A stretch of DNA of 53,670 nt, counting the filler, from Bipalium vagum (taxonomy: Eukaryota): the NCBI GenBank assembly GCA_037834085.1. It is 2 parts of 2 records of this genome, joined end to end, with 100 filler letters (N's around TTAATTAATTAA, not from the genome) between each part and the next. Parts side by side here need not be neighbours in the genome. Positions count along the whole stretch, not along the records: positions 31,608 to 53,670 come from JBBMKC010227763.1; 1 more part is not named here. One strand, given 5' to 3'. Positions 14,560-43,498 of the stretch are shown here, one piece after another. The notes beneath the pieces are model-generated. The model was not told where the DNA came from. It ran no database searches and saw nothing but the letters and a program-made list of their open reading frames with translations. A program made the position numbers and the translations under genes. The stretch's first letter is position 1. Each line of letters starts with the position of its first letter.

Positions 14560-16680
14560 TGATATAGTTCATCCACGTCTGAAATAGTGGTGTTAGTGGC
14601 TTTTTTGTCTTAAACAAGAATTTAATTGGTTTATGAACTTCTCACTAGAAATATTTTGCCATACAAGTAATGCTTAAAGTGGTTACAAAATTAATAGATT
14701 GCTAATAGTTCCTTTCTTGTGATGCATTACTCTTTTTCATGATTGTTCATTGCATGTGATCCGTACGCAATCACTATTTTACATTATTGTCTGCCTGTGA
14801 CAACACAGCTCCATTCGCTTCAAAACTGACATCAGTGTCTAATATAAACGTTCTTTTAATGTCTGGAAAGGCTAAGACTGGCGTCTTTGTTAGCAGCGAC
14901 TCTTTCAATTCTTGGAAGGCTACATTGCCTGCTTCGGCCCATATTAATTTCTCACACAATTTTTCTAACACTCTTGATTTTTTTTGCATACCCATTAATA
15001 AATTTTCGATAATTACAAATGCCCAGAAAGCTTTTTACATTTTTACGCAATTTTGCCTCCCTAAGCTTCTGTTTGCCTCAATTTACGCTGGGTCTGTTTT
15101 GATTCCTTGTTTGTCTATTATATGTCCTAGAAATTTAACTTATGTTCTTAGTAAATGGTATTTCTCTGGATTCACTCTAAGTCCTGCTTCTTTTATCATC
15201 TTTAGCACTTCACTTAATACTGTTTAATGATGTTCTATATCCTTTGTGTGAATCATGATATCATCTAAATAAACCATCGTAATTTTCAAATTTCCAAAAA
15301 CCTTTGTCATTAACTCTTGAAAAGTTCCCAAAGCAGCAGCTATACCAAAAGGCATTCTTGTGAAGCAAAACTGTCCTTCTTTTTTTGAAAAAGCAGTTTT
15401 TTATGTGAATCCGTCGTCAATTCAATCTGGTAATATGCATTACCCAAGTCAATGGTGCTTAAATATTTCGGTCCTTCCAATGTATCCATAAAATCCTCTA
15501 TGTTTGGCATCGGAAAAGCCTGAGGTTCAGTCACCTGGTTCAGCTTTCTAAAGTCTAGACATAACCTGACATTTTTTCTTTCTTTTTTCCATTCGCAAAG
15601 TAGTGGTGTTCAATGGTGAGTTGTATCTTTTTATTATTCCGTTCTCAAATAAATTCTTTATTGCTTCCTCAATTTTTTCTTCTAGATGCATCGCCTGTCT
15701 CCACAGTTTCGTGTTAATTTGTTTACCAGTAGTTTTGATTTCGTGCTTCATCATTTTTGTACATCCAATATCCCACGGATCTACCATGAATGTTTCTTTA
15801 TTTTTTTCTATTACTTCCAATAGCCTCTTATCTTCGACGGTGACTAATATCTTCTTTGCTCTTCGCAGGCGCTCTTCATTTTTAAAAAATCTTCCAAACT
15901 TGGCCTCAATGTTGAATACTTGTGAGTCATCCCTTTCTATCGAAATTTTCATTAATTTAAACCAAAACTTTGTCAAAAATTCTGTTCCTCCGATGAGCTC
16001 TGGTGAAACCTGCTATACAATTGTGAATGACATTGACTCAGCTCTATCTTCAATATAAACACCAACTGTTATCTTTCCTACCACATTCATTGCGCTATTA
16101 TTCGCAGTCTTTATGGTCTCCATGCATCTGCATATTTCTACATTGCCTAATTCTAGAAATTTATTTCGAATCATCACATTTATACTAGCTACAGTATCCA
16201 GTAAGCATTCCATTTCGTGTCCATGTATATTAACTGTTATACTTGGCCTTCCTTTCATCATGTTATATTTAATACTCTGTTCTTTAAAACTATTCATCGT
16301 TACTATCTCCTTTTCATCTCCTCTAAATTTTTCTTTAAAAATCTGTTCAACTATCCCAATTCATTCTTTTGCCCTGAAACTTTTTCATTTTCAATACCAC
16401 TTTTCACATTCTCTATTACATTTCTCTCATTGCAAAACCGTATTCCTACTTCTAGTTCAAGGCTTCGATCAAATCGACTTTGGACTGAGCCCGCCCTTTT
16501 GGGTGTTCATAGTATGAGTCTGTTTGTCCCTCTCAATGACCATACAGTCTTTTTCTGTCTTCTAATGTTGAAAACACCTCAGCCGTTTCTTCTGAAATCT
16601 CGTTCACATTTCTCTGGAATCTATTACTTCTTTTATATTCCGTTCCTCTATTTCTCTCATAATTATATAGTTGTCTGATA
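14560..16680 (-). mobile_element. Ty3/gypsy LTR retrotransposon fragment (gag end, protease, RT, RNase H), pseudogenised
   Basis: Protease CLLDTVAS; RT YLSTIDLGNAYYQI and VYLDD (YLDD at 15260-15271); RNase H FILDTDVS..GAVLSQ and CITRKELLA; PR-RT-RH order; frameshifts; no LTRs or integrase seen. Confidence 0.93.
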
Positions 16681-17436: not shown

Positions 17437-18575
17437 AGGGTGTTTATTATGTATGTTAACATACTTTATTTGTAAATTACAAGTTAAAAAATAAAGGTGT
17501 TACTATTTTTTTATATGGATTAAAAGTTTAATAATCCATTTAGTTAATTTTAAAATAAAATGGCTTTGTGTTTTTCGATGGAAGAAAGAATTCAAATTGT
17601 TGTATGGAACTCCAAATTTAATAATTTTGAAGAAGTAATTAGGCATGGGAAAAAGAAGTTTATCACTCCAGCACCAAGTAGGCAAACAATTAAAAAAGTG
17701 GAAAAGTTTAAGAAGACTGGAAGTGTTCATGTCCAAGTAAAATCCGGCCGACCTCTTTCCGTATTCACAACGAAAAAAATTCAAAGAGTGAAAAAATTGG
17801 TTGAAGAATCTAGCAAGTTGTCAGTTCGGCAGGGTGCTAGGAAACTTGACATGATTGTAAGCAGTTATTACAAGGCAATTAATGAAGCAGGCTTTTATTC
17901 ATTTAAGCCGTCAACCGTAATTGAGATCAGCGATGACGACTTTGACCGAAGAATGGAATTTTGTCAGACAATATTGGTACAACTCCAAAACGACTCTTCT
18001 TTGGTCAACAAAATAATGTGATCAGGCGAGAGTAAGTTCATGCTCAATGGAGTTGTTAATCGCCACAATTGCTGCTATTGGGCCTACTCTAACCCTAAAA
18101 TAACAATTCCTGTTAGAAACTCCAGGGTCGGGATAACGGTGTGGTGTGATTTAAGTTCACAAGGTATCATTGGACCACACTTCTTCGAAGATACGGTAAT
18201 TGGTGAGTCATACATGGAGATGCTGGAAAAGTTTTTATGACCTAGAATAATAAGAGGTCGTAAGTACTTACAAAATGAAGGGGCACCTGTGCACTATTCG
18301 CAAAAAGTCAGGAACTGCCTAGGCAAAAAGTTCCCAAATTACTGGATTGGAAGACGAGGTCCAATTAAGTGGCCTCCTCGTTCGACTTCCTCTTGTGGTG
18401 ATATCTAAAACAAAAATGTGTACAGAGACAGACCTCATACAATCGCTGAGCTCAAGGATAAAATCAGTCATGTTTGTAATGAAGTAGATACTGGAATGTG
18501 CCAGCGAGCATGTCTAAATGTACTGTCACGATTAAGCCATTACCTAGCTATCAACGGGCGTCAAATTATATAATT
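17437..18575 (+). mobile_element. Tc1/mariner element (rosa/DD41D-like); best-preserved transposase pseudogene in the window
   Basis: ORFs 17560-18021 and 18040-18240: HTH region KFKKTGSV..SGRP, then NGVVNRHNCCYW, IIGPHFFE, LQNEGAPVH and WIGRRGPIKWPPRS; in-frame stops. Confidence 0.92.

Positions 18576-31607: not shown

Positions 31608-31675
<68 letters not shown>
31608..31675. repeat. (TAT)n microsatellite
   Basis: Perfect trinucleotide run at the gap edge. Confidence 0.95.
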
Positions 31676-31677
<2 letters not shown>

Positions 31678-31949
31678 TTTAATTTTTACAATATTCTTTC
31701 TTCTGTAAAATAATAATCAATTTATTCTTCCTAAAAGATATTTCTCTTGACATAGGTAAAAATACTTGAAATAGCTGAAAGTAAAATTGGCCTGTAAAAA
31801 CTGTTTCCAGAATGTCTATTAGCTTGCTTTTTTCATTCCAATATTATCGACTTAATTTAAAACGAAAAGTTTTAAATTATCAATTCAATATTCATAATTA
31901 TAATCGATATGCTTAGTTTGAATTACTAAAATTAAGAAACTGCCTTTCG

Positions 31950-32860
31950 ACATATATTATTATATTATTACCAAAACCATTAAAATGCTGCATAACCCAG
32001 AAGAAACTTTTGTTTCGTGTTTAAAGGGGATTTGAAAAGACTTTCGAGATTTTTAGGACTTTCACTTTCTAGATGGTCAATCAAAGCTGATGATGAAATG
32101 AAAACCGCAATTAGTGAAAATAGGTATTTGACAACTTTGGAAATTGGAAAAACATTGAATTTGATGAATTTCTAACTTTTCATTGCATGTTTCACACAGA
32201 ATATATATTTATAGCATTGAGATCTGCGATTTATTTTTGAATTATGATCCGGAAATTTAATAGGAGTCTTTCAAATTTACTTTGAAATATCATCTTTTGT
32301 TGTGAAATATAGCTTTATTTTTACAACTCTCACAGTAACAACTCAAACGATCTACAATTTAAGTATTTAAACGTGAATCCAAATCAACAAAAGTTATTCG
32401 GTCCCGCAAAGCTGTAAATAAAACGATTGCCTGTTTCTTGGGTTTAAGAGGACATATGACAATATAACTTTAGAAAATCCAAGAACTCTTAATGCTGGAT
32501 TATATACAACAGTTTGTTTATCATAGCTGATTTCCAACATTAGAGGAAGCCTTAAAAATTGACAAATTAAATTTTTCTTGATGTTAACATCAGTTCTCAT
32601 GTGTCCGGTGAAACCATCACTTTTGCAGAAACTAAAAATGTAGAATTAATGATACATATTCCGTTTTCTCCTAACTTATAATCTTGTGACTTGTTTTTGT
32701 TCTCAACCTTTAATGATAAATTACATGATGAGCGCTTTTCGTAGCGTGAAGCAGCTATTGAAAATTTTGAGGTATTGGTATCTGAAATGCCAACTTCAGA
32801 ATAGAAAAAATGTTTCCAGAATTGGGTCGGTCTCGTAAAAATGTCGACTTAAACAATTAT
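31950..32860 (+). mobile_element. Mariner fragments
   Basis: WFKG...DLK-like N-terminal relic and HIPFSPNL*SCDLFLF...KKCFQNW C-terminus. Confidence 0.7.
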
Positions 32861-33218
32861 TTTGAAATTATTTCTTTGTTTTGTTTTTTATTTTACAAGA
32901 TACCGCTAACTTTCTCAGTAATTGAACTAGTTTTCTGAAATTTTATGACTGTTAGATTTAGGTATGCTAAATAATTCATAAATCTTTTCAATTTATAAAA
33001 CAAATTTAGTGTTTTCCTAAATCATTACAACTTACATATATAGATATCTTTCATAAATGTATTTTCATTTTTTCAATTAATTTTAAAAGCCCGGTTGTTG
33101 AGAAGTGAATAATTTCATTGAAGTATGTTTAACATCTCTAAGACTTTTCTGGTGATTTTTTAAATTTTCTTGGACATATTGAAAATAGGGCAATACTCCC
33201 AAATTGAAATCATGTATA

Positions 33219-34402
33219 GGTTTTCAAATAATTGGCTAAATATAATAGTCGTCAAGCATTTTCGTCCTAATCAAGTAATTTGATATATTATTTACCTAAA
33301 ATTGATTTAATTTTGAATTAATAAATTTTCAAAAAATTATAGATAAATATATATACTGTTGGTTTGCTTGTTATACCAATTCAAACAAGGTAAAATGGTC
33401 GCTAAATCACATCACAATTTTTGTCAAGTATCCGGAGATAATGTTCCAGTATTACTCTAATGTCAGGAATGATTTCGGCGTTTGCAAGATGGTGATAAAA
33501 GTCTTGAAGACGAAAAACATCAACATCGTCCTCACTTTGTGGATAACGAAGTACTAAGGGAAACCATCAAGTTGGATACCTGTCGAACTACTTGTGAGCA
33601 TGAATAAAAGTTTGATTACACTCATAGTACTATTTAAAATCACCTGTACGCAATCGATAAAATAAAAAAATGGAAGATGGATTCAGCACTAACTTAGCAA
33701 TCACAACAAAACGTTACGAGTAACCAATACTGGAATTTTTCTTCGCAAAGCTAAGAACAGCTGTTTCCTTGACTTTATTGTAATGTCAGATGATAAATGG
33801 ATATCATGCAATAATATGACAAGAAAATGACAGTGATTAGACGTTGGTGAGCAACCAAAACCGGCTCAAAATCCAAATATTCATGGATTTAAGAAAGTGT
33901 ATGGTAGAACAGAAAAGGTTTGGTATATTTTGAGCTGCTATTAAGTGTTAGACGGTTAATACAGAACTATAAGCAAAGTAACTCAACCATGTGGATCAAA
34001 TTTTGCTCCGTTAAGCTATAAATACCTCTAAAATAAAAATTTTCCATGACTACGCTAGCTCGCACATTGCAAAGTTCACACAGCAAAAATCAAGGAACGT
34101 GGCTGCACAGTGCCATATAGTCCAGACATAACTCCACCAAATTACCATCTATTCAGATCGATACAGCATTCCTTAGAGAATAAAACATTCACAAACAACA
34201 AAGAGGTCAAAATGTAAGTGTCACAGTTCTCTGAATCACAGCCAGAAGATTTTTATAAAAAGGACATTTATCTTTGTTTCAATGATTGCATCGAGTTATT
34301 GGCAATAATGGAGAATATCTTTTGGATTGAACCTTTTTTATTGCTGTTTCAGAAATAGATTTTATTTTCATAAAAAACGACTTTTAAACTTTGTCAACCT
34401 AA
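33219..34402 (+). mobile_element. Decayed near-full-length mariner element
   Basis: SLEDEKH..RP, IVMSDDKWI, FHDYASSH and YSPDITPPNYHLFRS motifs; ends ...tcaacctaaTA. Confidence 0.88.
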
Positions 34403-34699
34403 TATCTTGTAAAAGTTTTTCCTAAACGTGTATTCAATTTCTATACATTTTCCATAATAAATCATGGAAATATTTTATTCTGGCCGAGTAGTCGTTGGAA
34501 AGCTTATGTACGAAATATAATACCAAAAGATATTGAAAATCTTGAAATTTAAAAACCAAATTAATCTTAACACTTAGATCACTTCATCTTTTATTAAAAA
34601 TAGAAATAAATGTATTTAAACTCTTTTTTTTGTTTTGACACTTAAATAATTGATTACTTATGGGTACTCCTAATATATATCCATCCTGTCAGAATTAGA

Positions 34700-35230
34700 T
34701 TTAATCTGGTTTCAATAATTAAAAGACCAAATGGAGAGAGTAGTGATGAGAACAAGGAACATGTTTACCGCTGGAAATGCTGTACGGAGATATTGGATTG
34801 CCTCAACCACATTAGCCAGATATGCATCATTTACACTGAAAGAAACGAAATATTCACTGTTAGAATAACGAAGGATCAATTTTACTGAAACCAGATATTG
34901 CGGCAACTTAAATCTGACATAAGCATCTAGTACTGAACCTTCAAATTGTCAGCGATCCAGAATTCTAGATCTTTGCATAGTGAACGAGATCAAGAAGCGA
35001 AAGGAAGACATCCAAGAGATCAGAAATTACTTGGATCCAAGAATTGTCAAAGTTCTTGGTGCTAAGAGTTGTGAAAACTTTTGAAGACCACTGGATTTCA
35101 ATTAGACAATGTTAAGATAATAACTCTACGCTCATTAGAAGGCTCCACTGATATGATCCAGTAAAGAATCCTAAAACTTAATCTTGTAAAATGAATACTG
35201 TGGATATTACCTGTAGCCAGCACCCAAGTT
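34700..35230 (+). mobile_element. Possible decayed retroelement coding fragment (unclassified)
   Basis: Coding-like, purine-rich, stop-interrupted stretch with no diagnostic motif. Confidence 0.2.
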
Positions 35231-35769
35231 TATAAAAAGACATTTTTTGTTAAGATTTTGATAATGAATCTCATTTCCACTTTCTTATCTGTCTTTTAAA
35301 ATAAATATACTCTGTGGAAATGAATATTTTTTTTATTAATTTAAATAAAAAATACCTGTTCTATTACTCTCTGGGTCATGTTTACAGTTTCAAAATTAAT
35401 TAAAGATGTTTTTGAAAACTATTTTTTTAGAAGTTAAAACAGCCTTTCACAATTCATTTCATAAACATTCATAATGACTTTGTCTTAGGTTTGTCAAAGC
35501 TCTGAATCTTAGAGACCACTCTTGGATATTTTTATGTATGCTGACCATATATGAAAAAATCCTTCCTGCTATTTAGTATACAGCTCTATAATTTTGATTT
35601 TTAGATATTAGGATGTCTAAGATAAATATACCGGTTATATCAAAACCGAGGAATTAAAATTGTTGTCAGTCAACTTTGCATGAAAATATAGATTTTTTAA
35701 AATATCTATATATTTTTGGAAACAGAATAAAACCAGGTTTTGTTTAAATGAACATTAGATGAAAAATAT

Positions 35770-36100
35770 TTTAAATTTAGGCAAGAAGCTAGATTTGAAA
35801 ATTGACTTAATTCGATGTTATTATGGCAATGGAAATTCTACTAAAACTGTAATTAGGAAATCAAAGGCCAAAGAAATTTAATTAAGAGCCCATGTACATG
35901 TTTGGGATTATCAAAATTTGTGAAGAATTTTGAGGAAACTAGAAAAACGAATAAAAGAAGAATTTTCCCATTTTACTACCAAAGAGTTGCAACTGCAATA
36001 TTGGCCTTCCCACGAATAATTGAGTTTATGTTATCTGTTAAAGGAAATCATTTCGAGAACATAATGTAGGGAAAACTACTGTATTTCATTTACTGTATGT
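35770..36100 (+). mobile_element. Tc1/mariner N-terminal relic
   Basis: LIRCYYGNGNS...KFVKNFEET resembles the HTH region of the rosa-like elements in this window. Confidence 0.5.
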
Positions 36101-37060
36101 TATTTTTCATTAATAATATAAAATTTTTGTCCATTTTAGTCTTCAGCTATATTTCTTTCTAGGTTTTAATACGACAGATATAATATAATATTTAAGAAAA
36201 TAAATAAATGTTTAATTAAAACTAATTTTGTTTAAATGTTGTTAGAATTTTTAAATAAAAATAGGAACGATTAAGACTAAGACAGTTGAAATTTAAATGA
36301 ATATAATTAATTACCCCAAAATACGAAGAATTGAATGTTTTTCCAGGACATTAATACTTTTTACAATGTTAAACCACCCTCATTAAAGCATGGAAGTATT
36401 TGTAACATATTTTTATTAAATTTGGGGGAAATTATTCTGCTAAATGGATTTCATATCCACAAAATGATGAGAAGAGGCAAAGTGCAAGAAATCGAGGAGA
36501 AAACTATCACTTTACAGACCGGAGCGTTTGTGAAGGCAATAACGAAATTTTGATTTATGAAGTTCTCGCGTTGCAAGGCCAACAGTCAATTAATCAAACG
36601 TCTCAGAGCCCGTGTTCAGGACACATAAATTTCCCATTTCGAGATGTATTCATATTGGGGGGACAAGGCGCGCAAATTGTTCAATATAAATATTGTCTTA
36701 CGAAAAACCACTGGGCAATAAATTGTCACTTTTATTATATTGTCAGCTTTGGCCTGTGACAAGCTGTATTCGACAGTTCGTAAAAATCATAATTATCCTT
36801 CGAAGTTGTCTCCGTTCTATAATAAAAACCTGGAGATTCCATAATCATATTTTCTGCCTCATGTAAATCAATTTCTGGGATAAATGGTGTCATTCTGAGG
36901 AAATAAAAGTGCTTCCTTTTTACACTAAAATATTTTTATGTCGCAACACTGCCTTTCATTTCGACAGTATTATTAAGGGAGCCTGGTTCAAAGAGTGAAA
37001 CTCATTTTAAAATATACTGTAAGGTTAGAATACTTCAGAATTGAAGTGTGACCTGCGTCT

Positions 37061-37112
37061 GTAATCGTCTTTATAGAAATCTTCGCACGTAATCGTCTTT
37101 ATAGAAATCTTC
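37061..37112. repeat. Perfect 24-bp direct duplication
   Basis: gtaatcgtctttatagaaatcttc at 37061-37084 and 37089-37112, separated by gcac. Confidence 0.9.
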
Positions 37113-38595
37113 TAATGGCAATGTTTTCTGAGGGGCGAAAATCTACTGAAATCCCTTAGCTTATATAGTATTCGGGACAGATCTTCATCTGGGAAATATT
37201 CTTCAGATACTCTCAAAATTATACTTGAAATTCTAAAAATTCTATCAATATTCCAAAACTTCCTAAGAATTCCCTAAAAATTATTTCATTATGACCCTTA
37301 TTCTTTATTAAAATACCTCTTTCAGGCTTTTTAAAAATATAAATTATTTTTCAAGGATTATCTTATTTTTAAAGTATTTTCAAAATAAAATTCCTGGGAA
37401 ATTTTCAATTACTTTTCTAGTATTAATTAATTTTAATTATTAATATTATTATCATTATCATTATTAGTATTTATACCTTATTTATAGTTTTTATTACTTG
37501 TTTTTCCCAGGGGGGGATGTCTTGGGTAACCCAACAATATTATAATTAATATTCATTATGAATTTTTAAAAATATTTTCTTAATAATATTTATTTATTTA
37601 CTTTTACTTTATATTATAAAAAAGAATAAATAAAAATATGTAACAGCTGTGAATAAAATCAATTAATTGATTATTAATCATAAATAAAAAAATTCAAAAA
37701 TTCACTATTTTTCAATATATAAACTAATAATAATATTGATTTAATTAAAATTGATTTAATTAATTTATTTTTCCGTGTCCATAATTACAATTGGTCTCGG
37801 AGTCGTTGAATGGTATTGTCGTTCTCACTTTATTTATTATTATATTCATTTGCCATGATTTCCGACGACGAAATGTAGTACCAAAGTGCTTTTCGATTTC
37901 ATGATAAAATAATATTATTTTAACAATTGCATTCCTTCAAGCGAGAAAGACTTCAGAATTTGTTCTTGTACGGCTGTGAACCATCAGATTTTTTCCGTAA
38001 TTTTGCACAGGGAAATTCTTTTGCAGACAATTGATTACTTAAGAAAGGTAAATATGGGGGCGATAAATCAAAACCGAATCGGTTTTATCTTTGCCTCGAT
38101 CGTAAAAAGTGGCAATTATAAGCAGCAGCATTTGATAAATGGGCTGAGGTATAAACAATAAATTATAGTTGAATGTGTGGACATTCTCGGAATATATTAG
38201 TTAAAATACATATTAAAATTTTATTTAATTACCGAAAATTGAAGAGAATTTCCATTAATAATTTTCTTCCATCTCTAATTACGTTTTAATTAGTCAGAAA
38301 TAATTTTCCAATAATTTATTAATAATTATTATGTTCCAATAATTTTTTTTACAAATAATAAATTATAAATAATTTATATTTGTTAAAAAATTAATAAAAT
38401 ATTCAGTATTCAATAAAATTTTAACAAAGACAAATTTTTTATATTGAAAAATAATTTTTCTTTTTCTAAAATTTAAATATAAAAAAAATTATAATAAAAT
38501 AATAATCGGGGGTCCAAAATATTAAAATCAACAAAAAATCGAAATTTTATTATTATATTAATCGAAAAAGAAGAAGGTGCCACTTTATTTATCTA

Positions 38596-39843
38596 TTTGG
38601 TGATCCCGGAAAGATTTTAACCATTGAAATTTTATTGTTTGTTGTTTAAATAATAAGAGCGCCATTTAATTTCTGTGCGAATATTTTGAAAAAATGTAGT
38701 TAAAGCGATAAACTAATGAAATTTAATTAGGTAATTTTACTAAAATATTGATTTTAATTACTTATATGTAGATAAATATGGAAATCACAAAGGAGCATCT
38801 GAGTTGCATAAAGTATTACTTCTTTCGGAATCGAGAAATGACAACTGTCGTAGTTCATTTAATTTGTAATGTTTTTTGGGATTTAGTATCTGAACTAGTA
38901 TCTGATTTAGTATCTTGAACTAGTAGTGCAGTATTGATTTCAGAAATTTCGTTCTGGTAAAAATCGATAAAAGAGGCTACCCGGTCAGTTGGACCCACTG
39001 TCATTGACGAGAATGCTTTGAAGGAGCTGGATTGACATGTCAGGAAATTGCTGAGAAACTTTCAGTTTCCAAAACAACTGCAAATGACCACCTAAGGAGG
39101 ATAAGCTTTGTGAACAAACTGAATTGTTGGATTCCGTCAACAATCCCTAATGTCATTTGATTGACCACATAGAAATCTCCAAATCATTGCTAAAAATGAA
39201 TTAACTTCAGTCAATTTTGAAAAAGATGACAACAGGAGATGAAAAGTAAATCCCAGGTCGTAATGTGAGTAAACCACCATTACCGATATCAAAGGCGAGA
39301 TTACATCCTATAAAGACAATGGTATCATTATCGCGGGATTGGCAAGGTCTCCTCTATTATGACCTACTACTGACCAATGAAACAAGAAATTCATATTAAC
39401 CAACTGAAAAAATTTACAGGCTGCTATTGTAGAAAATCGACCTCATTTAACGATTAGAAAAGTTGTATTTTATCATGACAATGATAGACCCCATATGATG
39501 ATCACCAGGACGAAGTTGAAGGAGTTTAACTGAAAAGTTTTGCAGCATCTTGTATACTCGCCAGAACCTAGCTCTTTAGATTACCATCTGTTTAGATCGT
39601 TACAGAACTCACTCAGGGATCAGAATGTCAGTAATAAAAAAGATGTAAAGTTTCACTTGGAAGAATTTTTAAATTCCAGGAAAAAGAATTTTTGAACATC
39701 CGGAATTTTTTCTCTTCCAAAGAGATGGAAAGAGGTCTTAAATAACAGTGACAGTTATATTTTGTGTTAAACAAATGTATTTTTAAAATTCTGATCTTTT
39801 AAATTTCATTTTAAAAAAATGAAAAACTTTCCGGATCACCAAA
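38596..39843 (+). mobile_element. Full-length (~1.25 kb) decayed mariner element with TIRs
   Basis: TIRs tttggtgatcccggaaag / ctttccggatcaccaaa; motifs MTTGDEK, FYHDNDRPH and YSPEPSSLDYHLFRSL. Confidence 0.92.
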
Positions 39844-40622
39844 TTTTTGTCATTACAAATGCCTTTATTGATTACAACAGGACTTCCGTCAGTGGAAGCG
39901 AATGAAAAAATATTAATTATTAAAAGTAATTTTGAAACATAAATACTATATCAATTTATAATTATTTATACCGAACTCATTAAAAACTAAAACAGAGCTC
40001 CAGGTTAATAAAAGATATTCCACAAATTTTACCTGTCGGCAAAATGATATTGAGCAGTTTTTATGTTTTGATATTAAAACTGTCAACCTCATTAAACATT
40101 AAAAATAAAAAAATGTTTTTAACAAAACGATATCAGTAAACGTGTGCCAAAGAATTGGAATACTTTTATTAACAGCAATAAGCAGGAAGTCCATAAATGG
40201 TTGTTAGTTATTTTTCCTTATCACAAATTGGATCATTCAAACAATTTTAAATCCAAACCGTACGAATTTCAATTCTATTTATTTTAGATTTATTGATTTA
40301 ATTTAATTATAAAATTCAATTAATTGATTATCCCGACGTTAACATTGTATATTGTTGTGTTTGGTATTTAAGTTGAATTATTTATTCATTTTAACTGAAT
40401 TTTATATGTTTATGATAATTATTTTTATTAAATAACCTTTCATTATTATTATTTTTATTACTATTATTTATTATTTTTATTATAACATTTATATAAGTAT
40501 TAATCAAACTATTAGAGATCGTGTGATATCCACCTTATTCCCATTGTCTCTCTCTAACAGATTTCTACTTATTTATTAATTTTGGTAATCATTTAAGGGG
40601 AAAGAAATTCAAAAATGAAGTG

Positions 40623-40723
40623 TGTGAGATATATTGAAAATTAGTCGGGGGATGTAGCTCAGCGGTCAGAGCAGTGAATGCGCATGTGAAGGTCCCGGTA
40701 TCTCCGATTAATTTTCACTAACA
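40623..40723 (+). mobile_element. 101-bp TG...CA element (solo-LTR/TRIM-like) with a tRNA-Ala-derived core
   Basis: 5-bp TSD AAGTG (40618-40622 and 40724-40728); ends TGT...ACA; removing it restores the mariner reading frame. Confidence 0.75.
40648..40705 (+). pseudogene. tRNA-Ala-derived sequence lacking the T-arm/B-box
   Basis: GGGGATGTAGCTCAG.GGT.AGAGC...CGCATGTGAAGGTCCCGG-TATCTCC matches eukaryotic tRNA-Ala ends; the GTTCGA loop is absent. Confidence 0.8.
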
Positions 40724-41499
40724 AAGTGTATTTAAAAATGGAAGTGTCCGATTTCTTTCTCAGTAAGAAAAGAGATTTTTATGAATATGGAATTACTAAA
40801 TTGCAAAACCATTGGGAAAAAGTCGTAGAATATTTAAATAAAATTAATATATCTAAAATTAAAAATTTTAACTTTTGCTTTTTTAAAAAAATCGCCATGA
40901 ACTTATCTGGACTAATAATATTATATTATGAGGTAATATTAAAATTCCATTTTTCTTTAAATAAAAATTGATACCTGTTAGACGCACTAAAATTTACGCG
41001 AGCACCGATTTTTATTCTCTACTAAGAGCTTCACTGTGAGAATCTACAGAGAATTATAGCACCATATGAGAATTTGGTCATATTAAGTAACACAAGGTAC
41101 AATAGATTGCTTTATTATAATAATAATCAAATGGGTGGTTTTTCTATGTTCAGTTTTTCTAAACCAAATATTTATTTCTAATACTAAATTAGAAACAATT
41201 AGGCAACAATGCTGAATAAGACATTACTGGCATTGAGAATACTCTTTTTGCTTTTCAAACTTAGAATGAATGAAGAGCAAATTTATTTGCTTCATATACG
41301 AGTGCAAAAAAGCAAGGTTGTCTTAGGATTCAGTAGAGAACAATCCAATGACAAAAATGGTTGGTTGATATATAAATACTGTGGGATTACTTATTTTCCA
41401 TATATATAAAGCAGTGAACCAATAGAAAAGGAACAGTTCATTTGTTTACTGTTAAAAAATAATTTAAATTCAGCTTATGAAAATGATGTGCTAGATTTG

Positions 41500-42720
41500 A
41501 AAGAATACACATTTTCGATGTATCTTATTTTCGAGTTCGACCGAGAAGTAAATGCTAGAGAACAATAGGACTATGTTGATTTCAAGAGAAAATTTTCTCG
41601 ATTTATGAAAACAATTTCGATGAATATTGCATGAAGACTTGTGAAATTAATTAAAGAAATATTCATGGAGTTGGAAAAGTTTAAAAATTAGAATCATTAG
41701 ACCCTCAATTCCTTAAACCTTCCTTAGACATCAATGTTTGTTTTCTCTTAATTTCCATCAGAATCAATCTTTATTATCAACCAGTATTACCGATGTAGAA
41801 AAATGGTGTGTTCATATTAATTTTAACCAATGGAATGTATGGTTAAACCTGGATGGGCAGAAAGATTTGTAGATAAACCAAAATCTTCAACTGCAGACAA
41901 TAGTGAAAAAGGTTTTTCGATTATGAATTGCTTAAGAAAACTAGACAATCAATTTTAAAGTTGTTACCAGCCGAAATTTAGTTAAAGGCCGAATTCTGGT
42001 ATAAATAACCTAAAAATCCATATAAAGTGATTTTGACATAGATCAATGATACTTTTTTAGTGTAAAACGTAGTCAATGACAAACTTGATAAAAGGATATT
42101 TTCCCGATCCAGATCAAAAAATTATCATCTCTTCGATCTCTATCGAATAGCATGTTCACTGGTTACTCACAACCAATGTGGGTGAAATTTTATAAATTGA
42201 TAATATTTCGGTATGAAGTTAAATGACTGTGGATGTAAAATAAAGTCGTTCTCTTGGTCTATTTCACCACCATACTCTGCACTTTCCAACCCTCTAACTT
42301 AGCATACAGAAATGAAATTATTTACGTCTATCAAAAAAATCATAAGGAGAGATTTTTTGTACAATAAGTAACCACATATCTCTACGTTAATTCTATCTCT
42401 GATCTATGATATTTCTCAACCTATTTTGTGCGTGATTTCTTTTGAACTAAGGCCTTTGTATATTCATCATTGATATTCGATGATAATTCTATACGATTTG
42501 AGTCTTGATCAGACTTTTTGGCTCGTGTGAATAGTTGCAAATTTTTTCTATAGACTGCATTTACTTCACTTTTTGGTTTGGGTCAAACTTTCTCTTTTCG
42601 AAAAAAAAATAATACAACGTCCTAAAATTAAGTTAGCCTTTTAATTCAAATTTGATTCAAACACAATGTTAAAACAACGTTACGTTATAAAAAATGAACT
42701 TTCTGCTCAACTGAGTATGG
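41500..42720. mobile_element. Highly decayed mariner relics (plus-strand copy, then minus-strand copy)
   Basis: ITDVEKWCVH on plus and a DYHLFRS-like segment; a weak second relic on minus. Confidence 0.5.
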
Positions 42721-43094
42721 TAAACTTTAACAGTTAAAGATTAAGTCGGTGTAAAGTTGAATACAAAAAACCTAAGCCCGAAAAATCTCAGAATTTTAAA
42801 ACCTAAAAAATTAGAATGTCTGTCGAGATCACAAAGTTTTCAAAGGTAAAATAAAAAGTAATTATTGTTGTCTTTTTAATGTATTTGATCTTAACACTCC
42901 CCTTTATTCCAAAAAAAAGTTGAATAAATTACCATAGATAATTTATTTTAAGGAAGATCTTCTGTTAATAACCCAACCTTTATTTATTTTATTTTATATT
43001 TATTGCATGTACTTTTTAATTACTAAATGAAGATATGACGAGTATTAAAAATAATTGAAAGGTTTCATTGAGTGAGGTAACAAGTTAATTTCAG

Positions 43095-43267
43095 AAAGCG
43101 AAATATGCCGACATTTCAGAAGATGGAAGAGTAATATCGAAAGATACTTCGGGATCTTCAGAAGAAGAATCGAACATAATATCATCCAGAGATTTGGCAT
43201 TTATTGAACATTCCCCAGACTTTTGTGAATTGGACCCCACGACTGGTTCATTTGGCACACATGGCAG
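43095..43267 (+). CDS. wnt: Wnt-family ligand, penultimate coding exon
   Basis: tttcAG acceptor and AG|GTAAAT donor; translates KAKYADISEDGRVISKDTSGSSEEESNIISSRDLAFIEHSPDFCELDPTTGSFGTHG(R), matching the Wnt DLxYxExSPxFC...GSxGTxGRxC motif. Confidence 0.93.
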
Positions 43268-43314: not shown

Positions 43315-43498
43315 GAAATGCAGACTAGAAAACGTCACGATGACCGCCACGGATCACTGCACAAATATGTGCTGTGGCAGAGGTTATCGAGTAGTCCTGG
43401 AACAAAAGACCACAAAATGTAATTGCAGAATTGATGACAAATTCCAAATTCAGTGCGACGACTGCTTCTTCATTGCAAAAATTTACTATTGTCTCTGA
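43315..43498 (+). CDS. wnt: Wnt-family ligand, last coding exon
   Basis: After a 47-nt phase-2 intron: (R)KCRLENVTMTATDHCTNMCCGRGYRVVLEQKTTKCNCRIDDKFQIQCDDCFFIAKIYYCL*. Has Wnt CCGRGY and terminal Cys spacing; AATAAA at ~43637 and ~43671. Confidence 0.95.

What the first reader, a model, noticed from the sequence alone, without database searches (positions are those of the whole stretch)
43315..43498. Wnt ligand lacking the conserved FxWCC index-finger tip
Seen: CNC-RIDDKFQIQ-CDDC, where canonical Wnts have CxC-KFHWCCxVx-CxxC. The 9-residue spacing and all flanking cysteines are kept, but Trp and the vicinal Cys-Cys are replaced by D-K-F, with an acidic DD pair at the tip. Established: in the Wnt8-Frizzled CRD structure this hydrophobic tip forms binding site 2. 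The frame and splice sites are intact, suggesting a functional gene. Inference: altered Frizzled specificity, use of another receptor, or an antagonist role; probably one of the divergent flatworm Wnt11-like paralogs (subfamily not assignable by eye).
Basis: partly seen in the sequence, partly recalled or inferred. Interest (0 to 1): 0.7.

Follow-up and report, generated by a model that had tools for sequence, protein, structure and literature searches.

The report
Flatworm Wnt11 with a rebuilt fingertip
This is the flatworm counterpart of the planarian tail-patterning gene Wnt11-2; it and its relatives in planarians, flukes and tapeworms lack a fingertip motif that mammalian Wnt signals use for export and receptor binding, and they likely still signal through a remodelled, water-repelling tip.

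Summary
Observation confirmed. The last exon (43315-43498) encodes CNC-RIDDKFQIQ-CDDC where other Wnts have CxC-KFHWCCxVx-CxxC. The gene is not odd or broken. It is the orthologue of planarian Wnt11-2 (tree support 100/99), and Smed-Wnt11-2 has the same IDDKF. Splice sites are intact and selection is purifying (pN 0.16, pS 0.73). The loss is clade-wide: 0 of 23 flatworm Wnt11 fingers (triclads, flukes, tapeworms, monogenean) keep Trp or Cys, while 54 of 54 non-flatworm fingers keep Cys-Cys. The acidic DD is not what is conserved. Phe/Tyr replaces the second Cys (23 of 23), Val/Ile stays at V337, and Met/Ile/Leu/Val sits at F331, so three of four known site-2 positions remain hydrophobic. The predicted hairpin is intact. 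Best reading: one vicinal disulfide was lost as a unit and site 2 was remodelled, leaving a likely Frizzled (Fz4-type) agonist. Published RNAi of the orthologue gives tailless worms, which argues against an antagonist. Binding was not tested. My five literature searches found no mention of the loss. It matters as a natural exception to a motif reported essential for Wntless export and Frizzled binding.

The parts
31608..43094 (+). 3' part of a long phase-0 intron (at least 11.5 kb, cut by the contig start) holding transposon remnants; the N-terminal exons are off this contig
   Evidence: stretch = G000:C227763; no upstream Wnt exon found by tblastn; HTH and Transposase_1 remnants at 39008-39396
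43095..43267 (+). Penultimate coding exon (linker, DLAFIEHSPDFC, GTHG)
   Evidence: Pfam wnt 31.6 bits
43268..43314 (+). 47-nt GT-AG intron, phase 2; same position in C123577
43315..43498 (+). Last coding exon: C-terminal domain with hairpin 3, stop TGA
   Evidence: predicted strands 24-39 and 45-59
43418..43465 (+). Index finger CNC-RIDDKFQIQ-CDDC; four flanking Cys kept
   Evidence: 16 codons with pN 0.06 and saturated pS against C123577
43436..43444 (+). D-K-F replacing W-C-C; the Phe (43442-43444) is the clade-wide replacement of the second Cys

Best explanation
The window holds the last two exons of the orthologue of planarian Wnt11-2, whose index finger lacks the Trp and the Cys-Cys pair as in all flatworm Wnt11s examined, and it likely still acts as a posterior Frizzled (probably Fz4-type) agonist through a remodelled hydrophobic fingertip. 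Shown: identity, intact frame, purifying selection, clade-wide loss, and the conserved I/M/L - F - V/I pattern. From the literature: C334-C335 is a disulfide between neighbours, so losing both Cys leaves no free thiol; site 2 is F331, W333, C335, V337. Inferred: the lipidated thumb supplies site 1 as usual; on the retained hairpin the new Phe at 335 takes over part of the pocket-filling role of W333 and the disulfide, in Frizzled and in Wntless; affinity is probably lower or narrower than for Wnt3a/Wnt8. The change is at least as old as the triclad-neodermatan ancestor and was inherited by Wnt11-1/-2 and Wnt11a/b.
For: Orthology: window + C123577 + Smed-Wnt11-2 + a Dendrocoelum Wnt form a 100/99 clade; 74/117 identity to Wnt11-2 vs 51/120 to Wnt11-1; all 19 flatworm rows of 37 form a 97/93 clade. 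Loss: 0 of 23 parsed flatworm fingers (of 28 proteins, 14 distinct loops) have W or C; 54 of 54 parsed non-flatworm fingers (of 61) have CC and 45 of 54 WCC. 9 of 9 other complete finger exons read in this assembly have FxWCC. Compensation pattern: C335 column F22/Y1, V337 column V20/I3, F331 column M15/I5/L2/V1. Selection: pN 0.162, pS 0.730 over 117 codons. Fold: window exon gives a two-strand hairpin, pLDDT 94-96 over residues 31-50, from a flatworm-only alignment; Smed-Wnt11-2 model pLDDT 87.8 matches Wnt3 at E 7e-20. Lipid-site motif CKC(H/Q)G(V/T)SGxC in 26 of 28 flatworm proteins. Papers (passages): Smed-wnt11-2 RNAi tailless (PMC4661829); Fzd4-1 proposed as its receptor from matching expression and phenotype (PMC7830089); Wnt3a W333A, C335A, F331A still active in zebrafish while V337 is critical (PMC4068752). 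An Fz4-type receptor is in the assembly (L044, E 2e-38 to Fz4).
Against: In cells, Wnt3a W333A nearly abolishes Fz8-CRD pull-down and C335A abolishes reporter activity; V337I, the residue found here, is itself partly impaired (PMC4068752). W333A blocks Wntless-dependent export (PMC13434646), though earlier work found hairpin 3 less important for secretion (PMC10112924). A conserved Phe at 335 could serve hairpin stability rather than binding. PMC4661829 suggests Wnt11-2 acts on beta-catenin only indirectly and that Wnt11-1/-2 may be non-canonical. The Fzd4-1 pairing is genetic inference, not binding. The N-terminal exons could not be linked to this contig, so the lipid-site Ser of this copy is inferred. 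No RNA was examined for this species.
Confidence: 0.62

Rival explanations
1. Site 2 has been abandoned. Flatworm Wnt11 holds Frizzled only by the lipid thumb, or signals through a non-Frizzled receptor or co-receptor (Ror, Ptk7, Ryk) in a beta-catenin-independent way; the conserved Phe is structural or fits that other partner.
For: W333 and C335 are the strongest binding and reporter determinants in Wnt3a assays. Triclad Wnt11s also lack the hairpin-1 Trp (0 of 4, vs 56 of 56 parsed non-flatworm), and the site-1 Trp column is F12/Y2/I1. Non-canonical action is proposed in PMC4661829.
Against: V337 and F331 positions stay hydrophobic in 23 of 23, as expected if the same face still contacts a CRD. 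The wnt11-2 and fzd4-1 knockdowns give similar tailless worms.
Confidence: 0.24
2. The acidic DD tip is an electrostatic specificity switch that selects one Frizzled paralogue.
For: IDD/IDE is kept in all 4 rows of the Wnt11-2 clade, and Wnt11-1 loops are also neutral to acidic.
Against: Neodermatan loops have Q, K, N, E, P there with net charge 0 to +3, so the acid is not the reason for the loss; it could only be a later triclad refinement.
Confidence: 0.08
3. It is a secreted antagonist or dominant-negative Wnt that occupies Frizzled without activating it.
For: Some Wnt3a site-2 mutants bind but do not signal (V337R).
Against: Orthologue knockdown removes the tail, as do wnt1, beta-catenin and fzd/lrp knockdowns; removing an antagonist should do the opposite.
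Confidence: 0.04
4. Decaying copy, or a sequencing or assembly artefact.
For: The assembly is fragmented and seems mixed. The window's branch is longer than that of C123577 (0.38 vs 0.10). Two Wnt11-2 copies exist in the assembly.
Against: The same loop is in independent named proteins; the frame is open; pN is far below pS.
Confidence: 0.02

Closest known systems
Schmidtea mediterranea Wnt11-2 (UniRef C3U5B2, P0001)
   Same: Orthologue (100/99); identical IDDKF tip; 74/117 identity over the last two exons.
   Different: Different species. The window copy has drifted more than C123577. Expression and phenotype are known only for Smed.
Smed-Wnt11-1 and neodermatan Wnt11a/b (Schistosoma, Clonorchis, Echinococcus, Hymenolepis, Spirometra, Cichlidogyrus)
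   Same: All examined lack W and CC and carry F/Y at the second-Cys position.
   Different: Tip residues vary and are not acidic outside triclads; 14 of 16 neodermatan proteins keep the hairpin-1 Trp that triclads lost.
Wnt3/Wnt3a/Wnt8/Wnt5a with Frizzled CRD or Wntless (PDB 6AHY, 4F0A, 7DRT, 7KC4)
   Same: Fold, finger length, flanking cysteines, hydrophobic 331 and 337 positions.
   Different: W333 and the C334-C335 vicinal disulfide are absent; position 335 is aromatic.
Non-flatworm Wnt11 (molluscs, nemertean, arthropods, nematodes)
   Same: Best non-flatworm hits of the flatworm profile.
   Different: All parsed keep CC; 9 of 54 have N, H or Y for W (for example beetles, nematodes), so W alone is replaceable but CC was not lost there.
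Sponge Wnts without WCC (Halisarca P0012, Oscarella P0020/P0047)
   Same: Also lack W-C-C, with F or I four residues before the next Cys.
   Different: Loop length 8 or 12; no supported kinship with the flatworm clade (support 71, long branches), so probably independent.
Drosophila WntD
   Same: A divergent Wnt that breaks a supposedly universal rule.
   Different: WntD lacks the lipid and is Wntless-independent (PMC10112924); flatworm Wnt11 keeps the lipid-site motif and changes the finger.

Membership tests
Wnt family (PF00110) | Profile match above the curated cut-off | tested here: met
   31.6 and 35.9 bits for the two exons vs 20.3
Wnt family (PF00110) | Wnt fold with C-terminal hairpin 3 and its flanking cysteines | tested here: met
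   predicted: hairpin in the window exon; orthologue model matches Wnt3/Wnt8 at E 7e-20 to 2e-15; the exon-only model's best match is Wnt8a but weak, Z 3.2, rmsd 4.0, 57 aligned
Wnt family (PF00110) | Palmitoleoylation motif CKCHGxSGxC | tested here: inconclusive
   exon not in the window; present in both candidate 5' halves C108149 and C210572, but no contig overlap links either to the window
Wnt family (PF00110) | Signal peptide and secretion | not tested
   first exon not located; orthologues have a hydrophobic N-terminus by eye
Planarian Wnt11-2 | Clade with Smed-Wnt11-2 to the exclusion of Wnt11-1 | tested here: met
   100/99
Planarian Wnt11-2 | Posterior graded expression; tailless on knockdown | not testable with these tools
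   known for Smed only (PMC4661829)
Bilaterian Wnt11 subfamily | Flatworm clade groups with other Wnt11 | tested here: inconclusive
   full-length tree leaves the flatworm clade's sister unresolved; best outside hits are labelled Wnt11; preprint 10.64898/2026.07.29.741434 keeps Wnt11-1/-2 in Wnt11
Canonical site-2 ligand (Wnt3a/Wnt8/Wnt5a type); considered, not filed here | Trp plus vicinal Cys-Cys disulfide at the tip | tested here: not met
   D-K-F
Canonical site-2 ligand (Wnt3a/Wnt8/Wnt5a type); considered, not filed here | Hydrophobic residues at F331 and V337 | tested here: met
   Ile and Ile in the window; hydrophobic in 23 of 23 flatworm fingers
Canonical site-2 ligand (Wnt3a/Wnt8/Wnt5a type); considered, not filed here | C-terminal domain binds a Frizzled CRD | not tested

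The most novel reading that the evidence does not exclude
Flatworm Wnt11s are a distinct class of Wnt that is exported by Wntless and read by its receptor without the WCC tip (and in triclads without the hairpin-1 Trp), using a new Phe-centred interface that fits only a dedicated receptor such as flatworm Fz4 or a non-Frizzled partner. This would give planarian tails and parasite posterior tissue a private Wnt channel that the host lacks.
Probability: 0.3. Interest if true: 0.72.

Novelty: new variant of a known kind. Interest (0 to 1): 0.45.

Why it matters
The gene is known, but the feature seems unremarked. A 2026 structure paper calls WCC a conserved motif whose Trp is needed for Wntless export, and mutagenesis makes it the core of Frizzled site 2. 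Yet a ligand needed to build the planarian tail, and its relatives in flukes and tapeworms, lack it. That gives a ready natural test of whether hairpin 3 is needed for secretion (disputed in print) and of how Wnt-Frizzled specificity is encoded. It may explain why Wnt11-1/-2 phenotypes differ from those of Wnt1, and it marks a parasite-versus-host difference in a developmental ligand.

Tried and rejected
Word-based homolog search with the last exon alone found nothing; the N-terminal profile and HMMER searches did. Linking a 5' half to the window by contig-end overlap failed, 0 of 4 pairs. Wntless pocket co-evolution was dropped: only the transmembrane part was found, and one Wntless serves all Wnts. 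Receptor-side compensation: L044 and L051 have Phe where human Fz4 has Gly next to the conserved Tyr, but that position varies in other CRDs of the assembly and its place in site 2 is recalled, so it is not used. Convergence: 6 of 6 distinct CC-less non-flatworm loops have F/M/I at the 335 position, but they were retrieved with a profile that has Phe there, so this is biased and not counted. No Macrostomum or catenulid Wnt11 was among the hits, so the age of the loss is a minimum. My note that hairpin-1 Trp is lost in all flatworm Wnt11 was wrong: it holds for triclads and 2 of 16 neodermatans. Three papers asked for by PMC id were not held. No earlier scan finding matched.

Full report
Observation. 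The window is a pack of two stretches; the finding lies in the second (31608-53670), which is G000:C227763. Two exons, 43095-43267 and 43315-43498, are separated by a 47-nt GT-AG intron and end in TGA. Both pass the Pfam wnt cut-off. Against solved Wnt3 the finger aligns without gaps: RIDDKFQIQ for IFHWCCYVS.

Identity. A Pfam search of the assembly gave 44 Wnt exon matches. 9 of 9 other complete finger exons read from the fetched loci have FxWCC, and a tenth ends at FFW. Three lack it: the window, C123577 (RIDDKFRIQ) and C158983 (KLEEGFVVK). A profile of the matching 5' exons found Smed-Wnt11-2, Smed-Wnt11-1, two Dendrocoelum Wnts and a Cichlidogyrus Wnt11. Smed-Wnt11-2 ends CGC-FIDDKFKIQ-CDDC. 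In a 37-row tree of the last ~120 residues, the window groups with C123577, Smed-Wnt11-2 and one Dendrocoelum protein at 100/99, C158983 groups with Wnt11-1, and all 19 flatworm rows form one clade at 97/93. The gene is Wnt11-2. Its 5' half is probably C108149 or C210572, both with an intact CKCHGVSGGC thumb, but neither overlaps the window's contig. My full-length tree does not resolve the clade's sister group; the Wnt11 label rests on best hits and on a preprint (10.64898/2026.07.29.741434; abstract and passages).

The second copy. The assembly holds two different T-rich COI frames, open in table 9 and 79% identical, plus other COI types. Calling the two flatworm-like is my inference. C123577 may therefore be the orthologue from a second species and not a paralogue. 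Either way the comparison shows purifying selection: pN 0.162 and pS 0.730 over 117 codons, and pN 0.06 with saturated pS over the 16 finger codons. dS is saturated, so the ratio (about 0.07) is rough.

How wide the loss is. HMMER over 1.84 billion representatives and a full-length profile search added flukes, tapeworms and a monogenean. Of 28 flatworm-labelled proteins, 23 have a readable finger (5 models stop short; several are near-duplicates; 14 distinct loops; one unlabelled Logan protein left out). None has Trp or Cys in the loop. Of the 61 non-flatworm hits, 54 could be parsed: all have CC and 45 have WCC. The loss is therefore fixed in this clade and at least as old as the triclad-neodermatan ancestor. 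No macrostomid or catenulid sequence was retrieved.

What replaced it. The second-Cys column is F22/Y1, the V337 column V20/I3 and the F331 column M15/I5/L2/V1. The Trp and first-Cys columns are free and polar, and loop charge runs from -1 to +3 (same pattern in the 58-row alignment). Site 2 is described as F317/W319/C321/V323 in XWnt8 (PMC7667561, passages) and F331/W333/C335/V337 in Wnt3a, with C334-C335 a disulfide between neighbours (PMC4068752, passages). So one whole disulfide is gone, no Cys is left unpaired, three of four contact positions stay hydrophobic and one gains an aromatic. The pairing of the flanking Cys (327-342, 329-339) is recalled. AlphaFold2 on the window exon with 22 rows (21 flatworm or G000, 1 unlabelled) gives strands 24-39 and 45-59 with a D-D-K-F-Q turn at pLDDT 94-96, though pTM is only 0.41. 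The Smed orthologue folds as a Wnt. Side-chain directions could not be inspected.

Function. Smed-wnt11-2 is expressed from mouth to tail tip and its RNAi always gives tailless worms; the authors suggest an indirect effect on beta-catenin and a possibly non-canonical role (PMC4661829; first fifth of the text, Discussion and passages). Fzd4-1 is proposed as its receptor from similar expression and phenotype (PMC7830089, passages). In Wnt3a, W333A nearly abolishes Fz8-CRD binding and C335A the reporter signal, yet both mutants still act in zebrafish; V337 is the critical residue and V337I is partly impaired. W333A also blocks Wntless-dependent export (PMC13434646, passages), against earlier work summarised in PMC10112924 (passages). 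The most economical reading is a lipid-anchored Frizzled agonist with a remodelled, probably weaker or more selective site 2. That the Phe substitutes for the Trp is inference. Against it stand the cell-culture losses above, the further loss of the hairpin-1 Trp in triclads (0 of 4) and the non-canonical proposal, which keep the alternative-receptor reading at about one in four. Binding was not tested.

Novelty. The gene is known. Searches pairing wnt11-1/-2 or Wnt11a/b with cysteine, index finger or WCC found no statement of the loss; 'WCC motif' occurs in one paper only. Passages of PMC4778295, PMC13029709, 10.1101/2023.10.02.560491, PMC4028453, PMC5797367 and PMC8235796 do not mention it, and the flatworm Wnt preprint has no 'cys', 'finger' or 'disulfide' in its main text. 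Gurley 2010 was not held, Riddiford and Olson 2011 was not looked up, and no supplement was read; alignments there may show the loss. Sponge Wnts from Halisarca and Oscarella lack WCC too, so the exception is not unique among animals.

Verdict. Real, conserved and apparently unremarked, in a well-studied gene: a new variant of a known kind. Interest 0.45, or about 0.7 if a distinct binding or export mode is shown.

Noticed in passing
L065:120-1793 and L066:1-1026; also L067, L069, L074: The assembly holds two different T-rich COI frames open in table 9 (79% identical) and further COI types; degenerate copies (L068, L070-L073) resemble L066 only. G000 is probably a mix of species, which may explain its paired Wnt and Frizzled genes.
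   Followed up: partly
L037:3724-4110, L038:2081-2449, L035:6041-6394: Triclad Wnt11-1/-2 also lack the hairpin-1 Trp (FAGC or YTNC for WGGC) that contacts Wntless in mammalian Wnts; most neodermatan Wnt11 keep it.
   Followed up: partly
P0001 residues about 119-132; L037:4109-4158: The database Smed-Wnt11-2 protein has a 14-residue insert exactly where this assembly has a short intron, and the model is least confident there: probably a retained intron in the record.
   Followed up: no
P0012, P0020/P0047, P0010, P0016, P0019, P0022: Sponge and unlabelled Wnts that also lack WCC, each with F, M or I four residues before the next Cys; possible convergence, but retrieval was biased.
   Followed up: partly
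P0018, P0075, P0077, P0070, P0108: Beetle and nematode Wnt11-like proteins keep CC but have N, Y or H in place of the fingertip Trp.
   Followed up: no
L051:1468-1830 and L058:1435-1770: Two intronless Fz4-like receptors with a six-residue deletion in the N-terminal CRD; L058 is strongly divergent. Candidates for partners of divergent Wnts.
   Followed up: no
window 39008-39396, 34059-34355, 17554-18570, 14777-16360: Broken transposon remnants: mariner/Tc1-like pieces in the Wnt intron and in the first stretch, and a decayed retrotransposon-like region on the minus strand at 14.8-16.4 kb (label by eye; no Pfam hit for the piece scanned).
   Followed up: no
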